Shown one piece after another: positions 1-3,419 of a DNA stretch of 5,114 nucleotides. Source of the stretch: a virus. Taxonomy: Duplodnaviria; Heunggongvirae; Uroviricota; Caudoviricetes. The first letter of the stretch is position 1, and each line of letters starts with the position of its first letter. The notes beneath the pieces are model-generated. The model was not told where the DNA came from. It did not search any database and saw nothing but the letters and a program-made list of their open reading frames with translations. The DNA lies in IMG/VR virus record IMGVR_UViG_2778261527_000009, positions 1 to 5,114 of that record. The stretch is one strand, 5' to 3'. A program made the position numbers and the translations under genes.

Positions 1-450
1 TGCTGCATGCTCCTGCAGCTTCGAAATTGAGAGATACAGCTCGTCGTTAATTGCTGTCTTCTCATGCGGTTCCACCACACCGTCTTCGATTGCCGAACGA
101 ATCTGTCTGGAATAACTGCCAATCTGTTCAATGACTTCCAGCAGGCGCTGGTTAATATCGGCGTTGTCCACATCCTCGACGTCAGGAAGAGACACAAAGA
201 CGCCATTTGCAGACTGCGCCACAGCGTCAGCAATGAAGTGAGTTCCACCAGCACGTTGCAAAATCATTGCCCATCCCAGCGGGAAAATCTGATCGCCATC
301 GGCACGAAGGCGGTTAAATAATGCGTTTTCTGTTACATCCAGCCAGTCAGCTGCTTCAGCGTAACCACCCGGCAACGCTGCGATAGTTTTTCTGACAGCT
401 TTCACGTACCACTCAGGCTGTTTTTCTACTTTCCAGTGATGCTTACCCAC
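1..450 (-). CDS. CII-like / YdaT-like lysogeny regulator, partial (3' end runs off the window start); GTG start
   Basis: Minus-strand frame is open from GTG (plus 448-450) to position 1 with no stop (150 codons, hand-translated: VGKHHWKVEKQPEWYVKAVRKTIAALPGGYAEAADWLDVTENALFNRLRADGDQIFPLGW...ISKLQEHAA). Strong SD AGGAGG (plus 457-462, 6 nt spacer). Sits immediately downstream of the cro-like gene, the position held by cII/ydaT in lambdoid prophages. Not in the ORF track because it lacks an in-window stop. Family assignment is from memory of CII(CP76)/YdaT-like proteins, not a search. Confidence 0.5.
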   Translation of the reverse strand, partial: MGKHHWKVEKQPEWYVKAVRKTIAALPGGYAEAADWLDVTENALFNRLRADGDQIFPLGWAMILQRAGGTHFIADAVAQSANGVFVSLPDVEDVDNADINQRLLEVIEQIGSYSRQIRSAIEDGVVEPHEKTAINDELYLSISKLQEHAA

Positions 451-703
451 GGTTCACCTCCTGTTCCTGTGGTTTAAACCCATTCTGGTTTTGGCTAGAT
501 TGAAAACGTGCCGGATAAAGAATCTGCATTTCGCTGACTTCACCCTTAAAAAAATTGGCTAAACGTTCTGCAAGCTCGATAGATGGAATCTGCTCCAGCC
601 TCTCAATACGACTCAACGTCGCTGGATTGACTTGAACACCCGCAGCAACATGCTGCAAAGTGAAACCATGCGCCTTACGCACATTTCGTAATGGTGATTG
701 CAT
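443..703 (-). CDS. Cro-like HTH (XRE family) transcriptional regulator
   Basis: 86-aa ORF, divergent from the repressor gene. The N-terminal segment GFTLQHVAAGVQVNPATLSRIERLEQIPS has the look of an XRE/Cro-type helix-turn-helix. SD GGAGG is 4 nt upstream of the ATG on the minus strand (plus 706-711). Confidence 0.8.
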   Translation of the reverse strand: MQSPLRNVRKAHGFTLQHVAAGVQVNPATLSRIERLEQIPSIELAERLANFFKGEVSEMQILYPARFQSSQNQNGFKPQEQEVNRG

Positions 704-800: not shown

Positions 801-1493
801 ATGAACATAGGAAACCGAGTCAGACAACTTCGCCAAGCGAAGAACATGAAAATCGCCGATCTCGCTGAAGCAATAGGAGTAGATGCGGCGAACATCTCGC
901 GCTTAGAAACGGGTAAGCAAAAACAATTTACCGAACAAACACTGAGTAATATTGCCAAGAGCTTAGGTGTTGATATTGCTGATCTCTTTACCTCTGCCCA
1001 CAAAAGTAATACTGTATATAAAAACAGTAATGATGAGGATGTTGCGCAGGTGAAGGATGTGTTCCGTATTGAAATGCTGGATATCAGTGCCAGTGCGGGA
1101 AATGGCCTTATCCAGGGCGGTGATGTCATTGATGTGATTCATGCCATCGAATACAGAACTGATAATGCTGTATCAATGTTCGGCGGACGACCAGCCAATC
1201 ACATCAAAGTTATCAACGTTCGTGGGGACAGTATGTGTCCAACCATTGAGCCAGGAGATCTCATCTTCGTTGATGTCAGCATCAATCAGTTTGATGGTGA
1301 TGGTATATATGTCTTTGGTTTTGATGACAAAATATACGTTAAAAGACTTCAAATGATTCCTGACAAACTGCTGGTGATTTCTGATAACCAGATTTACCGT
1401 GAATGGGGAATTACTAGCGAAAACGAACACCGATTCATGGTCTTTGGAAAGGTCTTAATCAGTCAGTCGCAAACCCTTAAGAGACATAATTAA
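801..1493 (+). CDS. CI-like phage repressor (N-terminal HTH_XRE, C-terminal S24 LexA-like autopeptidase domain)
   Basis: 230 aa. N-terminal HTH (KIADLAEAIGVDAANISRLETG). Ala99-Gly100 is a candidate cleavage site. Ser144 in GDSM and Lys181 in VKRL are 37 residues apart, the same Ser-Lys spacing as LexA. No SD precedes the ATG, consistent with a leaderless PRM-type transcript. Confidence 0.9.
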   Translation: MNIGNRVRQLRQAKNMKIADLAEAIGVDAANISRLETGKQKQFTEQTLSNIAKSLGVDIADLFTSAHKSNTVYKNSNDEDVAQVKDVFRIEMLDISASAGNGLIQGGDVIDVIHAIEYRTDNAVSMFGGRPANHIKVINVRGDSMCPTIEPGDLIFVDVSINQFDGDGIYVFGFDDKIYVKRLQMIPDKLLVISDNQIYREWGITSENEHRFMVFGKVLISQSQTLKRHN

Positions 1494-1511: not shown

Positions 1512-1536
1512 GGCCACCGAAAGGTGGCTTTTTATT
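1512..1536 (+). terminator. Rho-independent terminator downstream of cI
   Basis: GGCCACC (1512-1518), GAAA tetraloop (1519-1522), GGTGGC (1523-1528), followed by TTTTTATT. Lies 19 nt after the cI stop. Confidence 0.8.
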
Positions 1537-1546
1537 ACCTATCAAT

Positions 1547-1597
1547 TTGCATATCCCGCAAATATCACTTGCATATCTCGCAATTTAATTTTATCTT
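1547..1597 (+). promoter_or_regulatory. OL/PL-like element: two operator-like 15-mers overlapping a putative rightward promoter
   Basis: Direct repeats TTGCATATCCCGCAA (1547-1561) and TTGCATATCTCGCAA (1569-1583), 22 bp centre to centre, matching the 15-mer family seen between cI and cro. Putative -35 TTGCAT (1569-1574), 17-bp spacer, -10 TATCTT (1592-1597). Confidence 0.45.
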
Positions 1598-1744
1598 TTG
1601 TTCCAGACCAACTACAGGATTACAACAAAATCTGGTTGCAACACGGTGCATGTGTCGTAAGCAGTCAGTAAATGTCAAAAACGAACAGGCAGGACGCCCA
1701 CGAAGTAGCCGCCTGGGGCATATGAAGTCCAGGATGATTCGTTA

Positions 1745-1772
1745 GCAACAAAAAAGCGCCCTACAGGACGCT
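1745..1772 (-). terminator. Rho-independent terminator for leftward transcripts
   Basis: On the minus strand: 7-bp stem AGCGTCC/GGGCGCT (one G-U pair), loop TGTA, then TTTTTGTTGC. On the plus strand the same hairpin has a C-A mismatch and no clean U-tract, so it is better formed on the minus strand. Confidence 0.5.
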
Positions 1773-1774
1773 TA

Positions 1775-1786
1775 GCTCTTTAACAA
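1775..1786 (+). promoter_or_regulatory. boxA-like antitermination element (rrn/nut type), immediately after a hairpin
   Basis: GCTCTTTAACAA (1775-1786) is an exact match to the E. coli rrn boxA core (NusB/NusE binding sequence). It lies in the leader between the PL-like promoter and the first downstream gene and is preceded by the hairpin at 1755-1772, the boxB-then-boxA order of rrn leaders. Confidence 0.4.
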
Positions 1787-1831
1787 TCTGGTCCCCATCA
1801 ACAAGTAACTGATAACTTGAGGAGGTGTGAA

Positions 1832-2038
1832 ATGCACAAAACAGAACCCAAAATCGTCGCGCCCGGATACACAAATGAGGAAATTTACGAGTGGATGGCA
1901 AAGAAGCTGGCAGCTATAAACCAGCTTCGTGAAGTGCTGTCTTATCGACAGGAAATAATAGACTCCTTAAAAAAACTGGATCAGGAAATCACGGTTTTAT
2001 CACAGGATGTTACTTTAGATATTGTGCAGACAAATTAG
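1832..2038 (+). CDS. Hypothetical small protein (68 aa), moron-like
   Basis: ATG at 1832 preceded by a strong SD GAGGAGG (1819-1825, 6-nt spacer). The track's TTG at 1817 is unlikely to be the real start. AT-rich relative to flanks. Product MHKTEPKIVAPGYTNEEIYEWMAKK...; no family recognised. Confidence 0.55.
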   Translation: MHKTEPKIVAPGYTNEEIYEWMAKKLAAINQLREVLSYRQEIIDSLKKLDQEITVLSQDVTLDIVQTN

Positions 2039-2444
2039 GATCCCATTCATTTTCGTCAAAATCATCAAAGTGATGAATTTGTGATCTCCAGTCTCGATAA
2101 TCTAAAAATTTCTGGGCGGTTACGCTTATTTTATCAAGTGTGAGTTCATCCTGAATTGAAAGAAGAAGTTCATCAAATTTCATCTCATTAATCTGTTTTG
2201 GCATCCAGTGATGCTTCATCAGAATAAGGTGAACCAGAGCCTTTTTCCCATTCAACTGATTATAGGGAGTGCCGAATTTCTTCCGGTGCTCATGTAAGAC
2301 AAGGTCCAGAAGAGTAAGTAATGTTGCCCTTGATTCGACTTTGCTTATTTCGACTGATGACACTACCCCACTGATTTCAATGCCCCGATACTTTCCAACA
2401 TTTTCACAGTGGGATTTGTACAGCGTGTAGATATTACCGGACAT
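2010..2444 (-). CDS. Hypothetical protein (144 aa), convergent with and overlapping the 68-aa gene; candidate moron/exclusion gene
   Basis: 144-aa ORF with a mixed, protein-like composition. Weak SD (AAGGAAA) about 6 nt upstream of the ATG on the minus strand. AT-rich. Overlaps the 3' end of the 68-aa gene by 29 nt. No family recognised from memory. Confidence 0.6.
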   Translation of the reverse strand: MSGNIYTLYKSHCENVGKYRGIEISGVVSSVEISKVESRATLLTLLDLVLHEHRKKFGTPYNQLNGKKALVHLILMKHHWMPKQINEMKFDELLLSIQDELTLDKISVTAQKFLDYRDWRSQIHHFDDFDENEWDPNLSAQYLK

Positions 2445-2459
2445 TTCTTTTCCTTTTGC

Positions 2460-2511
2460 GTTGTTGGGGATAACCAGATTAACCGAATCCTTGTTGTTGG
2501 GGAATAACCAG
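2460..2511. repeat. Two near-identical direct repeats (18/19 bp) upstream of the 144-aa gene
   Basis: GTTGTTGGGGATAACCAG (2460-2477) and GTTGTTGGGGAATAACCAG (2493-2511), identical apart from one inserted A, 33 bp apart. They lie 16-67 nt upstream of the minus-strand ATG at 2444. Confidence 0.6.
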
Positions 2512-2805
2512 GTCCACCTCGCCTGATGTGGCTAAAAGCAGGCACATAACAGCTAAGTATTTTCAACCAGAGAGAATCCTTAGCGTTGTGGTGAATGCGG
2601 CTCAGCGCACGCGGGTTAAGGTTGAGGCTGACAGTCGACCTTCTGTGGATACCCACCCGCCTGGTGTGCAACCTTCGCCAGGCACCGGGAGGCACCCGGC
2701 ACCACAACTTTATGCTGTGTGTAGTCCTGGCGGTACCAGTTTGTACCCTTGCTTCCGGCTGGCATCCCCGCACCACTGAAACGACTTCTTCCTGACTATA
2801 AACGG

Positions 2806-3066
2806 ATGGAAGAAAAAATAGACGCCGTAATCCGTGAGAAATACGGGTTACCTCCTGTTATGAGCACGCCAGTGAAATATGCCGATCTCATTATGCTGGC
2901 AACCGAACGCCGCGATCTCGGGCTTGATGATGGCTCTTTCTGGCCTGTGCTGGAAGGTATCCCGGCAACAGAGATGTTCAACGTGATTCCACTGGCTCCA
3001 GGCCATGCCTACGGGATGTTTATGGAACGCTTTAACGAATTATCGGAGTTACGCAAATGCGCATGA
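2806..3066 (+). CDS. HD-domain phosphohydrolase C-terminal remnant (YfdR/YfbR-like), N-terminally truncated; possibly a pseudogene
   Basis: The frame is open from 2725 (stop at 2722-2724) to the stop at 3064-3066. The product contains TPVKY and ADLIMLATERRDL, resembling the C-terminal half of YfbR/YfdR-type 5'-deoxynucleotidases, but no H...HD metal-binding motif is encoded upstream in any frame. First in-frame ATG is 2806 (weak SD); the track's TTG at 2749 is an alternative. Confidence 0.45.
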   Translation: MEEKIDAVIREKYGLPPVMSTPVKYADLIMLATERRDLGLDDGSFWPVLEGIPATEMFNVIPLAPGHAYGMFMERFNELSELRKCA

Positions 3067-3419
3067 ATGTTTTCGAAATGGAAGGGTTTCTTCGTGGGAG
3101 ATGTGTACCGCGAGATCTGAAAGTGAATGAAACGGATGCTGAATACCTAGTGCGTAAATTCGATGCGCTTGAAGCTAAATGTGCAGCACAGGAAAACAAA
3201 GTAATACCAGTGTCAACTGAACTGCCACCAGCAAATGAAAGTGTTTTGTTATTCGATGCTAACGGAGAAGGCTGGCTAATTGGCTGGCGTTCTCTCTGGT
3301 ACACCTGGGGACAAAAAGAAACCGGAGAATGGCAGTGGACATTTCAGGTCGGGGACCTTGAAAACGTCAATATCACTCACTGGGCAGTAATGCCAAAAGC
3401 ACCGGAGGCTGGAGCATAA
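3057..3419 (+). CDS. DUF551-like phage early protein (120 aa; resembles the CPS-53 YfdS class)
   Basis: 120-aa ORF, SD GGAG (3044-3047). Start overlaps the upstream stop (ATG 3057, upstream TGA 3064-3066). Trp-rich C-terminus (WLIGWRSLWYTWGQKETGEWQW) typical of DUF551 proteins in lambdoid early regions. Resemblance is from memory, not a search. Confidence 0.7.
   Translation: MRMNVFEMEGFLRGRCVPRDLKVNETDAEYLVRKFDALEAKCAAQENKVIPVSTELPPANESVLLFDANGEGWLIGWRSLWYTWGQKETGEWQWTFQVGDLENVNITHWAVMPKAPEAGA

What the first reader, a model, noticed from the sequence alone, without database searches (positions are those of the whole stretch)
1832..2520. Convergent, 3'-overlapping pair of unknown genes (68 aa + / 144 aa -) at the cI-adjacent moron position
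Directly downstream of cI, where lambda carries rexAB and other lambdoid phages carry exclusion or defence morons, sits a visibly AT-rich island with two protein-like ORFs of no recognisable family. They face each other and overlap by 29 nt at their 3' ends. The 68-aa gene has a near-perfect SD, so it is probably real. The 144-aa gene has its own upstream region containing two 18/19-bp direct repeats and appears to have its own leftward terminator. The arrangement suggests mutual antisense interference or a two-component module such as toxin/antitoxin, abortive infection or superinfection exclusion.
Basis: partly seen in the sequence, partly recalled or inferred. Interest (0 to 1): 0.7.

Follow-up and report, generated by a model that had tools for sequence, protein, structure and literature searches.

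The report
Conserved face-to-face prophage gene pair
Two overlapping genes that face each other, just downstream of the early-left promoter of an SfIV-like E. coli prophage, are a real two-gene module inherited together across many temperate phages; its function is unknown, and my best guess is a lysogen-expressed accessory or defence protein paired with an antidote made in the lytic cycle.

Summary
A 68-aa ORF (1832-2038, +) and a 144-aa ORF (2010-2444, -) converge and overlap by 29 nt. The strong SD, the direct repeats and the minus-strand terminator are all present.

Two parts of the interpretation need correcting:
- The genes are not family-less. The large one is an NCBIfam "ECs1072 family phage-associated protein"; the small one is YdfC-like.
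- The pair is not in the lambda rexAB slot. Operator repeats (OL/PL) lie between cI and the pair, so it sits inside the early-left operon. The small gene runs with the operon and the large gene runs against it.

The main result is that the pair is an ancient unit. The same convergent, 3'-overlapping arrangement recurs at 20-50% identity in Salmonella, Klebsiella, Serratia, Erwinia and P2-like prophages, in three different lytic operons. The large gene is always antisense to the operon. The two proteins have diverged together (r=0.90).

The large protein gives a very confident all-helical model with no match in PDB, BFVD, Pfam or PADLOC.

Best reading (inferred, about 40%): a lysogen-expressed accessory or defence protein that is switched off on induction, by antisense transcription from the lytic promoter and by the small protein. 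Function is untested.

The parts
1512..1529 (+). cI terminator (context)
   Evidence: Intrinsic-terminator match GGCCACCGAAAGGTGGCT followed by a T-run, directly after the cI stop codon at 1493.
1547..1583 (+). OL/PL operator repeats (two copies of TTGCATATC[C/T]CGCAA). The early-left promoter reads rightward in window coordinates.
   Evidence: The motif occurs three times in the window, the third copy in the cI-cro intergenic region at 766; 0.03 matches expected by chance. The SfV relative has an 11/12 sigma-70 promoter at the equivalent place.
1677..1743 (+). Conserved structured leader element of the PL transcript; left boundary of the cargo slot.
   Evidence: Shared by SfV, SfII, SfIV, PhiR29 and mEp460, which carry different cargo. 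Among 75 distinct sequences there are many compensatory pair changes in two helices.
1754..1773 (-). Intrinsic terminator for the large gene's transcript, lying beyond the small gene.
   Evidence: AAGCGTCCTGTAGGGCGCTT followed by TTTTTT. A nearly identical terminator sits at the same relative place in the 52%-identical pair of L009 and in other minus-strand cargo cassettes.
1785..1805 (+). Left inverted-repeat arm (AATCTGGTCCCCATCAACAAG), about 30 nt upstream of the small gene.
   Evidence: Complementary to 2461-2480 (75%) and to 2490-2503 (93%). Duplex energy is -28.1 kcal/mol against -14.4 +/- 3.4 for shuffles. Other cassettes in this slot carry their own covarying arms.
1832..2038 (+). Small gene, 68 aa, YdfC-like. 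Same direction as the PL operon, strong SD.
   Evidence: phrog_1744, E 1.8e-33. 39% identity to YdfC-annotated proteins. Homologous partners sit beside distant large-gene homologues. AF2 model: a 14-residue extended N-terminus followed by one long helix, pLDDT 87.
2010..2038 (.). 29-nt overlap of the two 3' ends. It lies next to the near-palindrome TGGGATCC that encodes the large protein's conserved EWDP motif.
   Evidence: Coordinates. The 3' overlap is 29-95 nt in the pairs examined. W133 of the large protein is invariant.
2010..2444 (-). Large gene, 144 aa, ECs1072 family. Antisense to the PL operon.
   Evidence: NF033230, 157.8 bits against a cutoff of 70. phrog_5286. 76 representatives at 50% clustering. 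AF2 pLDDT 95.6, all-helical. No structural or sequence match in PDB, BFVD, Pfam or PADLOC.
2460..2512 (-). Upstream region of the large gene: two direct repeats (GTTGTTGGGGA[A]TAACCAG), which are also the right inverted-repeat arms.
   Evidence: D2, I2, I3. The outer copy belongs to an adapter conserved upstream of unrelated minus-strand cargo genes. No consensus sigma-70 promoter was found here.
2514..2762 (+). Conserved STnc100-like structured RNA region; right boundary of the cargo slot.
   Evidence: Rfam RF02076 hit at 2563-2748, 35.6 bits (gathering score 47), E 3.5e-5. Shared by all relatives regardless of cargo. A full-scoring STnc100 (108 bits) follows the homologous pair in Klebsiella phage KPP5665-2.

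Best explanation
Shown:
- The 68-aa and 144-aa genes are one conserved, mobile two-gene module carried as cargo in promoter-proximal positions of lytic operons of temperate Enterobacterales phages.
- Here the module sits between the structured PL leader and an STnc100-like RNA.
- The small YdfC-like gene runs with the operon and has no recognisable promoter of its own, so it is most likely made only when PL fires.
- The large ECs1072-family gene is antisense to the operon and has its own upstream region and its own terminator, which lies beyond the small gene.

Inferred mechanism:
- In the lysogen PL is repressed, and the large protein is made from its own promoter. Its long 3' UTR is antisense to the small gene and would mop up any leaky small-gene message.
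- The large protein acts as a lysogen-phase accessory factor. The most likely role is exclusion or abortive-infection defence against incoming phages.
- On induction, PL transcription runs head-on through the large gene, giving transcriptional interference and antisense RNA. It also produces the small protein, a conserved N-terminal peptide followed by one long helix. The small protein binds and neutralises the remaining large protein, so the prophage can grow lytically. This is cognate self-immunity.
For: Module status:
- The pair recurs as a convergent, 3'-overlapping (29-95 nt) unit in the window and SfIV; in L009 (52%/50% identity); in L190; in Erwinia L099; in L098; in Serratia L016; in Salmonella ST64B; in Klebsiella prophages; and in a P2-like early operon.
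- In 120 viral contigs chosen without reference to the pair, 21 have both genes and all 21 are convergent and adjacent; 2 have only the large gene and 1 only the small.
- Pairwise identities of the two proteins correlate at r=0.90, Mantel p=0.0002.
- The two small-protein subfamilies align profile to profile from the N-terminus (89.7% probability, E 1.9e-6).

Orientation rule:
- In every context examined the large gene is antisense to the flanking lytic operon: PL operon, the region between the late regulator (Q in KPP5665-2) and holin, and the P2-like Cox-to-gpA operon.

Transcription signals:
- OL/PL lies upstream of the pair.
- The minus-strand terminator lies beyond the small gene in the window and in L009.
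- In ST64B the large gene's terminator is embedded in the small gene's coding sequence, and a 10/12 promoter-like site precedes the small gene.

Asymmetry:
- All 14 phage records with the large gene also have a small partner. Of these, 6 were also detected by tblastn and I inspected 2 of the other 8 directly (ST64B and KPP5665-2). 19 phage records have a YdfC-like gene and no large gene.

Compatibility with lytic growth:
- Isolated phages SfIV, Kati, vB_EcoS-569R4 and vB_EcoM-689R6 carry the pair.

Lysogen expression:
- ECs1072 gave a measurable, growth-phase-dependent microarray signal in uninduced O157 Sakai (weak evidence).

Moron traits:
- Low GC, its own terminator, and a slot with at least 15 alternative cargos.

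Precedents for defence plus self-immunity:
- BstA/aba (PMC8585504) and TerI/anti-TerI (bioRxiv 10.1101/2025.02.27.640495).
Against: - No function has been tested, and no defence-system model matches either protein (PADLOC).
- No consensus promoter for the large gene was found, so expression in the lysogen is inferred from layout plus one microarray entry.
- Physical interaction between the two proteins is not shown, and the tools would not accept a complex prediction.
- A few large genes lack an intact partner: L007, possibly L100, and the frameshifted copy in L008.
- YdfC-like genes are common without the large gene, so the small protein may have a separate role.
- The large protein has no recognisable catalytic or membrane features. 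The only nearly invariant polar residues are R53, H71 and W133.
Confidence: 0.4

Rival explanations
1. Developmental toggle. The large protein is a lysogeny-phase regulator of the prophage itself. It might damp an early lytic function, or act on the flanking leader or STnc100-like RNAs. The small protein, made first from the lytic promoter, would be its antagonist. The module would then tune the lysis-lysogeny decision or the induction threshold rather than defend against other phages.
For: - The pair always sits promoter-proximal in lytic operons, with the large gene antisense.
- It repeatedly neighbours STnc100 or STnc100-like RNA.
- Several unrelated cargos in the same slot are also plus/minus convergent pairs.
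- From memory, Roberts et al. 2007 (J Gen Virol 88:3187; cited in PMC3475682) reported a transcription-termination immunity, and its prevention, in this region of SfV.
Against: - The slot holds at least 15 unrelated cargos and some phages carry none of them. No particular cargo can therefore be essential to the regulatory circuit.
- The module also sits in late and P2-type operons, which have different regulation.
- No DNA- or RNA-binding fold was recognised.
- The SfV paper could not be read.
Confidence: 0.2
2. Addiction-type toxin/antitoxin. The large protein is a toxin and the small protein its antitoxin, stabilising the prophage or triggering abortive infection when the antitoxin is lost.
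For: - Two small co-inherited genes.
- The partner that can occur alone is the small one, as seen for orphan antitoxins.
- The 3'-overlapping convergent geometry recalls antisense-controlled (type I) systems.
Against: - The genes are convergent, not an operon.
- The small gene has no evident promoter and lies downstream of the repressed PL, so it would not be supplied continuously in a lysogen.
- E. albertii keeps an intact large gene beside a frameshifted small gene.
- Neither protein matches any known toxin or antitoxin family.
- The large protein is not a small hydrophobic peptide, unlike type I toxins.
Confidence: 0.15
3. Lysogenic-conversion moron with no phage-directed role. The large protein changes host physiology or virulence. 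The small gene is an ordinary early gene whose overlap with the moron only reflects tight packing and shared inheritance.
For: - The same type of slot, bounded downstream by STnc100, carries stx2 in Stx phages (PMC12370729).
- The pair is in 395 of 5426 complete E. coli genomes.
- YdfC-like genes are ordinary members of early-left operons elsewhere.
Against: - Mere packing does not explain why the two genes move together between three kinds of operon, keep their 3' overlap, and diverge together down to about 20% identity.
- The large protein has no signal peptide or membrane segment and no hit to any virulence family.
Confidence: 0.15

Closest known systems
BstA / aba (prophage BTP1 and relatives; Owen et al. 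2021, PMC8585504)
   Same: A prophage accessory gene encoded downstream of the cI locus and expressed in lysogeny. It defends by abortive infection and is paired with a cognate self-immunity determinant at the same locus, so that the prophage can still replicate lytically. Direct repeats sit just upstream of the defence gene's start codon.
   Different: No sequence relationship; PADLOC found no defence-family match. The BstA self-immunity element is a 63-bp DNA element, not a protein. BstA has no convergent partner gene. Here neither defence nor self-immunity has been shown.
TERi system of Listeria phi10403S (TerI with anti-TerI1 and anti-TerI2; bioRxiv 10.1101/2025.02.27.640495)
   Same: [quoted passage not shown] This is the logic proposed here.
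   Different: Different host phylum, no detected homology, different gene layout. The target there (terminase) is known; the target here is unknown.
YdfC of the Qin/Kim cryptic prophage dicBF operon (ydfABC-dicF-dicB)
   Same: The 68-aa protein is 39% identical over 66 residues to YdfC-annotated phage proteins. Both are small early-left-operon genes, lie downstream of a cI/DicA-type repressor, and are followed by a processed sRNA. In phage Evi, DicF and an STnc100-like element follow it.
   Different: The YdfC loci examined have no ECs1072-family gene opposite them. YdfC itself has no known function, so the similarity names the protein but does not explain it.
Lambda rexAB, and sieB of lambda and P22 (from memory)
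   Same: Exclusion or abortive-infection genes of lambdoid prophages located next to the immunity region. P22 SieB comes with an escape function (Esc) encoded at the same locus.
   Different: rexAB lies between cI and PL and is co-transcribed with cI. The pair here lies beyond OL/PL and the large gene is antisense to PL. There is no sequence similarity.
Type I toxin-antitoxin loci with convergent 3'-overlapping transcripts, such as Bacillus txpA/RatA and bsrG/SR4 (from memory)
   Same: Convergent transcription units whose 3' ends overlap, so each RNA is antisense to the other.
   Different: In those loci one partner is a non-coding RNA and the toxin is a short membrane peptide. Here both partners are conserved soluble proteins.

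Membership tests
NCBIfam NF033230 'ECs1072 family phage-associated protein' (large gene) | Full-length HMM score above the curated cutoff of 70 bits | tested here: met
   157.8 bits, E 1.7e-46, residues 4-144 against model positions 2-142 of 142. RefSeq annotates the identical protein WP_000016389.1 with this name.
YdfC-like small prophage proteins (small gene) | Significant full-length sequence similarity to proteins annotated YdfC. Neither Pfam nor NCBIfam returned a YdfC model for this protein. | tested here: met
   39% identity over 66 of 68 residues with no gaps; pairwise E 2e-16. tblastn E 3e-8 to 19 phage records, many of them annotated 'YdfC family'. Also phrog_1744, 68 of 68 positions.
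Lambda rexAB-type slot (cI-proximal, PRM-transcribed exclusion genes) | Located between cI and OL/PL, on the cI strand, and co-transcribed with cI | tested here: not met
   The cI terminator at 1512-1529 and the two operator repeats at 1547-1583 come before the pair. The large gene is on the opposite strand.
Type II toxin-antitoxin module | Two adjacent genes co-transcribed as one operon | tested here: not met
   The genes are convergent and overlap at their 3' ends.
Type II toxin-antitoxin module | Toxin or antitoxin belongs to a known TA superfamily | tested here: not met
   No Pfam, NCBIfam, PADLOC or PDB match for either protein beyond the two families of unknown function.
Type II toxin-antitoxin module | Toxin arrests growth and antitoxin relieves it | not testable with these tools
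   Needs expression experiments. Indirect evidence against: an intact large gene beside a frameshifted small gene in E. albertii.
Known anti-phage defence systems (PADLOC-DB v2) | HMM match to a component of a described system | tested here: not met
   No families for either protein at E up to 1.
Prophage defence with cognate self-immunity (BstA/aba, TERi) | Defence gene expressed from the repressed prophage | tested here: inconclusive
   Own terminator and antisense orientation, and a microarray signal for ECs1072 in uninduced O157 Sakai. However, no promoter was identified.
Prophage defence with cognate self-immunity (BstA/aba, TERi) | Protects the lysogen against other phages, and the self-immunity element rescues the prophage's own lytic growth | not testable with these tools
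   Needs plaque and induction assays.
Rfam RF02076 STnc100 (flanking RNA at 2563-2748) | Covariance-model score at or above the gathering score of 47 bits | tested here: not met
   35.6 bits, E 3.5e-5, full model length matched. I therefore call it 'STnc100-like'. The Klebsiella phage counterpart scores 108.1 bits.

The most novel reading that the evidence does not exclude
The ECs1072/YdfC-like pair would be a previously unrecognised, widespread family of prophage-encoded anti-phage (exclusion or abortive-infection) modules. It would be built on a new protein fold. Self-immunity would be wired into the genome layout in two ways: head-on transcription from the prophage's own lytic promoter, and a small helical antidote made from that same transcript. 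The many 'orphan' YdfC proteins, including the one in the E. coli K-12 Qin prophage, would then be antidotes or counter-defence proteins against this family.
Probability: 0.3. Interest if true: 0.75.

Novelty: new variant of a known kind. Interest (0 to 1): 0.6.

Why it matters
If the reading is right, it would matter in four ways:
- It adds a new protein family, apparently with a new fold, to the prophage-encoded defence repertoire.
- It gives a first functional handle on YdfC, a long-unexplained K-12 prophage gene family.
- It offers a clear example of how a prophage can carry a weapon yet switch it off for its own lytic growth, using only gene orientation plus a small antidote.
- The same kind of slot, bounded by a structured leader or a lytic promoter on one side and an STnc100-type RNA on the other, carries Shiga toxin genes in Stx phages and at least 15 other cargos here. 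Understanding its expression logic therefore bears on how prophage cargo genes are regulated in general.

The module is present in about 7% of complete E. coli genomes, so it is easy to test.

Tried and rejected
- HK022 put-type antiterminator for the PL leader: no sequence similarity to the HK022 immunity/PL region. Rejected as a membership claim; the element is nevertheless clearly structured.
- P4-type immunity, in which an RNA pairs with leader sequences: the duplex between the leader (1670-1790) and the STnc100-like region is not better than shuffles (-76.1 against -67.8 +/- 5.8). Rfam C4/CI did not hit. Not supported.
- The paper describing transcription-termination immunity in SfV (Roberts et al. 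2007) is not held in the library. Anything I say about it is from memory.
- Flanking inverted repeats as a defining feature of the pair: they are present in the window and in other minus-strand cassettes of this slot. They are not consistently present around distant copies of the pair. They therefore belong to the slot or cassette, not to the pair.
- Promoter for the large gene: no consensus sigma-70 match on the minus strand, and by eye only weak candidates. Left open.
Two single-protein scans of viral contigs found nothing.
- A complex prediction of the two proteins is not possible with the tool, which takes one exact sequence.
Full report
WHERE THE WINDOW COMES FROM. The window is the immunity-to-integrase segment of an SfIV/SfII/SfV-type (CPS-53/KplE1-like) lambdoid prophage of E. 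coli. It contains:
- a cro-like gene (443-703, minus strand);
- a cI-type S24 repressor (801-1493, plus strand; Pfam HTH plus Peptidase_S24);
- the region in question;
- a 5'-truncated yfdR, a DUF551 gene, yfdT, an excisionase-like gene and a tyrosine integrase.
A RefSeq E. coli chromosome is 100% identical over the finding, and 395 of 5426 complete E. coli genomes carry at least 80% of the 1500-2820 segment. The isolated phages SfIV, Kati, vB_EcoS-569R4 and vB_EcoM-689R6 carry it too.

THE OBSERVATION. The two ORFs, the 29-nt 3' overlap, the GAGGAGGT Shine-Dalgarno, the direct repeats and a minus-strand terminator are all present. GC falls to 0.34-0.39 in the centre of the pair, against 0.57-0.59 just to its right. 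Three details change the picture:
- The terminator (1773-1754) lies on the far side of the small gene. The large gene's mRNA must therefore carry a roughly 260-nt 3' UTR that is antisense to the entire small gene, including its ribosome-binding site.
- The repeat motif has a third, inverted copy at 1785-1805. Near-identical sequence (AATCTGGT..CCCCA.CAACA) therefore lies 30-45 nt upstream of both start codons, and the module is bracketed by inverted repeats.
- TTGCNNATCNCGCAA occurs once in the cI-cro intergenic region and twice at 1547-1583, directly after the cI terminator (0.03 expected). In the SfV relative the equivalent place holds an 11/12 sigma-70 promoter pointing the same way. The pair is therefore downstream of OL/PL and inside the early-left operon. 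It is not in the cI-PL interval where lambda keeps rexAB.

BOTH GENES ARE REAL AND BELONG TO NAMED FAMILIES OF UNKNOWN FUNCTION.
- The large protein matches NCBIfam NF033230 'ECs1072 family phage-associated protein' (157.8 bits, cutoff 70) and phrog_5286.
- The small protein matches phrog_1744. It is 39% identical, without gaps, to proteins annotated YdfC in many lambdoid phages.
- Pfam, PADLOC and PDB sequence searches give nothing for either protein.
- Among close alleles, substitutions fall mainly at third codon positions in both genes.
- An exhaustive profile search finds 76 representatives of the large family at 50% clustering.
- A profile search finds more than 220 clusters (at 90% identity) of the small family. 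All named hits are from Enterobacterales and all named ones are 'hypothetical'.

THE PAIR IS A CONSERVED UNIT. I examined the surroundings of distant large-gene homologues. The same arrangement appears again and again: a small gene converging on the large gene and overlapping its 3' end by 29-95 nt.

| Locus | Identity to the window pair (large/small) | Genome context |
|---|---|---|
| L009, metagenomic contig | 52% / 50%, both intact | not determined (1.6-kb contig); same terminator beyond the small gene |
| L190 | divergent second pair (33% / 36%) | same slot as the window |
| L099, Erwinia prophage | divergent (31% / 28%) | next to cI |
| L098 | divergent (29% / 25%) | not determined (1-kb contig); the same large protein lies near cI in L097 |
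| L016, Serratia | large protein 35% | not determined |
| Salmonella phage ST64B | large protein 32% (residues 51-142) | large gene unannotated, opposite sb50, between the early-region genes and the holin |
| Klebsiella prophages | large protein 29-30% (residues 51-143) | between Q and holin |
| P2-like prophage | large protein 22% | between cox and gpA |

- The small partners share an N-terminal motif (EPxIxAPGYTxEExxxW) followed by a long helix. The two main small-protein subfamilies align profile to profile from the N-terminus (89.7% probability, E 1.9e-6).
- In 120 viral contigs collected through the PL-leader sequence, and so without reference to the pair, 21 have both genes and always as convergent neighbours; 2 have only the large gene and 1 only the small.
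- Across ten pairs the identity matrices of the two proteins correlate at r=0.90 (Mantel p=0.0002).
- In every context examined the large gene is antisense to the surrounding lytic operon, and the small gene (where present) runs with it.
- Exceptions are few. L007 has no partner. L100 is unclear. In E. albertii (L008) the small gene is frameshifted while the large gene is intact.
- The converse does not hold. 19 phage records have a YdfC-like gene and no large gene.

THE PROTEINS.
- With a 47-sequence alignment the large protein gives a very confident all-helical model (pLDDT 95.6, pTM 0.90).
- Nearly invariant residues are L49, R53, L63, G65, A68, H71 and W133. There is no signal peptide, membrane helix or recognisable catalytic motif.
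- The conserved C-terminal EWDP is encoded on the near-palindrome TGGGATCC at the overlap. In the ST64B-type pairs both proteins read WDP from it on opposite strands.
- The small protein is predicted to be a 14-residue extended N-terminus followed by a single helix, residues 15-67 (pLDDT 87). That shape suits binding a partner.

THE SLOT.
- Comparison with SfV, SfII, PhiR29 and mEp460 shows sharp mosaic boundaries: a conserved 67-bp element (1677-1743) on the left and a conserved 249-bp element (2514-2762) on the right, with unrelated cargo in between.
- Among 63 loci with both flanks there are at least 15 cargo types, and the window's pair is the commonest at 18 of 63.
- Several other cargos are also plus/minus convergent overlapping pairs: SfV orf33 with an unannotated 81-aa gene, the SfII 68/63-aa pair, and the L116 120/97-aa pair.
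- Minus-strand cargos share a conserved terminator on the left and a conserved adapter on the right. Just inside these are cargo-specific inverted repeats that covary. This would let the 5' and 3' ends of the minus-strand mRNA pair with each other, or form a stem around the cargo in the PL transcript.
- The left element is a structured RNA with abundant compensatory changes.
- The right element resembles Rfam STnc100 but scores below the gathering score (35.6 against 47 bits). A full-scoring STnc100 follows the homologous pair in Klebsiella phage KPP5665-2 (108 bits).
- According to the literature, a copy lies 75 nt downstream of stx2 in Stx2 phages, and 11 STnc100 copies are listed in EHEC, nearly all with substantial RNA-seq reads.

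HOW IT MOST LIKELY WORKS. Shown: the layout, the co-inheritance, the orientation rule and the signals above. Inferred:
- With PL repressed, the large gene is expressed from its own upstream region, and its antisense 3' UTR keeps the small gene silent.
- When PL fires, head-on transcription and antisense RNA shut the large gene down. The small protein, one of the first products of the operon, neutralises the large protein already present.
- That logic fits a lysogen-phase factor that would harm the phage's own lytic growth. The best-documented kind is a prophage-encoded defence protein with cognate self-immunity, such as BstA/aba and TerI/anti-TerI.
- Supporting hints: the large gene is almost never without the small one while the reverse is common; phages isolated as virions carry both genes; and ECs1072 gave a microarray signal in uninduced O157 Sakai.
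- I put this at about 0.4.
- Rivals: a prophage developmental toggle (0.2), an addiction-type TA (0.15; weakened by the convergent layout, the lack of a small-gene promoter and the E. albertii frameshift), and a host-directed conversion gene with an unrelated neighbour (0.15; weakened by the co-divergence and co-mobility).

COMPARISON WITH WHAT IS KNOWN, AND VERDICT.
- As families, both genes are already catalogued (NCBIfam, PHROGs, 'YdfC'), but without function.
- I found no paper mentioning them as a pair, or the large protein at all, apart from one microarray table.
- The new points are the recognition of the two as one ancient module, its fixed orientation relative to lytic promoters, its apparently new fold, and its place in a cargo slot shared with many other morons.
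- I rate it a new variant of a known kind: a prophage accessory module with built-in control by the lytic promoter. Interest 0.6.

Noticed in passing
window 2762/2763: The window jumps from the end of the STnc100-like element straight into the middle of yfdR. The closest relatives have 460 bp here, including the yfdR start; SfV-type phages have about 1.76 kb with yfdP and yfdQ. No complete E. coli genome listed has the junction in one piece. Only a GG microhomology is visible, so yfdR is 5'-truncated in this source.
   Followed up: partly
window 1677-1743 (and 130 loci, L105-L224): A 67-nt element at the 5' end of the PL transcript is a structured RNA with strong covariation (for example, one pair is seen as UA/CG/GC/AU in 14/28/26/5 sequences). 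It has an invariant loop, GGCAGGACGCCCACGAAGUAGCCG. It has no Rfam family and no similarity to HK022 put. It may be an antiterminator or part of the termination-based immunity reported for SfV.
   Followed up: partly
window 2514-2762; L012 2528-2723; L013 4248-4433: STnc100 or STnc100-like RNA marks the downstream edge of cargo slots in different lytic operons. It lies after this pair in the PL operon, after the homologous pair between Q and holin in a Klebsiella phage, after DicF in phage Evi, and (from the literature) 75 nt after stx2. Its role at these boundaries is unexplained.
   Followed up: partly
L002 (SfV) 2595-3053; L003 (SfII) about 2650-3203; L116: Other cargos in the same slot are also convergent, 3'-overlapping plus/minus gene pairs of unrelated sequence: SfV orf33 with an unannotated 81-aa minus-strand ORF; the SfII 68-aa/63-aa pair; and the L116 120-aa/97-aa pair. 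The face-to-face layout may be a general design at this slot.
   Followed up: no
window 1754-1805 and 2460-2512; L005, L106, L151, L187: Minus-strand cargo cassettes share a conserved terminator and a conserved upstream adapter. Just inside these are cargo-specific inverted repeats that stay complementary while their sequence changes (GGATGACT/AGTCATCC, GGATATC/GATATCC, GTAACCCTC/GAGGGTTAC). This suggests a 5'-3' end-pairing stem in the mRNA, or an RNase III site, or it could be a footprint of cassette exchange.
   Followed up: partly
L011 (ST64B) 2845-3279; L012 (KPP5665-2) 2818-3291: The ECs1072-family genes of Salmonella phage ST64B and of Klebsiella phage KPP5665-2 are not annotated in the deposited records I opened. 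They lie on the strand opposite all their neighbours. In ST64B the large gene's terminator hairpin is embedded in the coding sequence of the small gene (the EKAALEERL segment).
   Followed up: yes
window 2036-2046 and homologous overlaps: The large protein's conserved WDP motif is encoded on the near-palindrome TGGGATCC inside the overlap. In the ST64B/Klebsiella/Serratia subfamily the small protein also reads WDP from the same palindrome on the other strand.
   Followed up: no
L151 4350-5184: One viral contig carries a second, very divergent ECs1072-like gene elsewhere in its immunity region. It is overlapped by about 270 nt by a convergent 160-aa ORF. That ORF has a faintly similar motif (RDLANWLIGK) but does not match the small-protein profile.
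   Followed up: no
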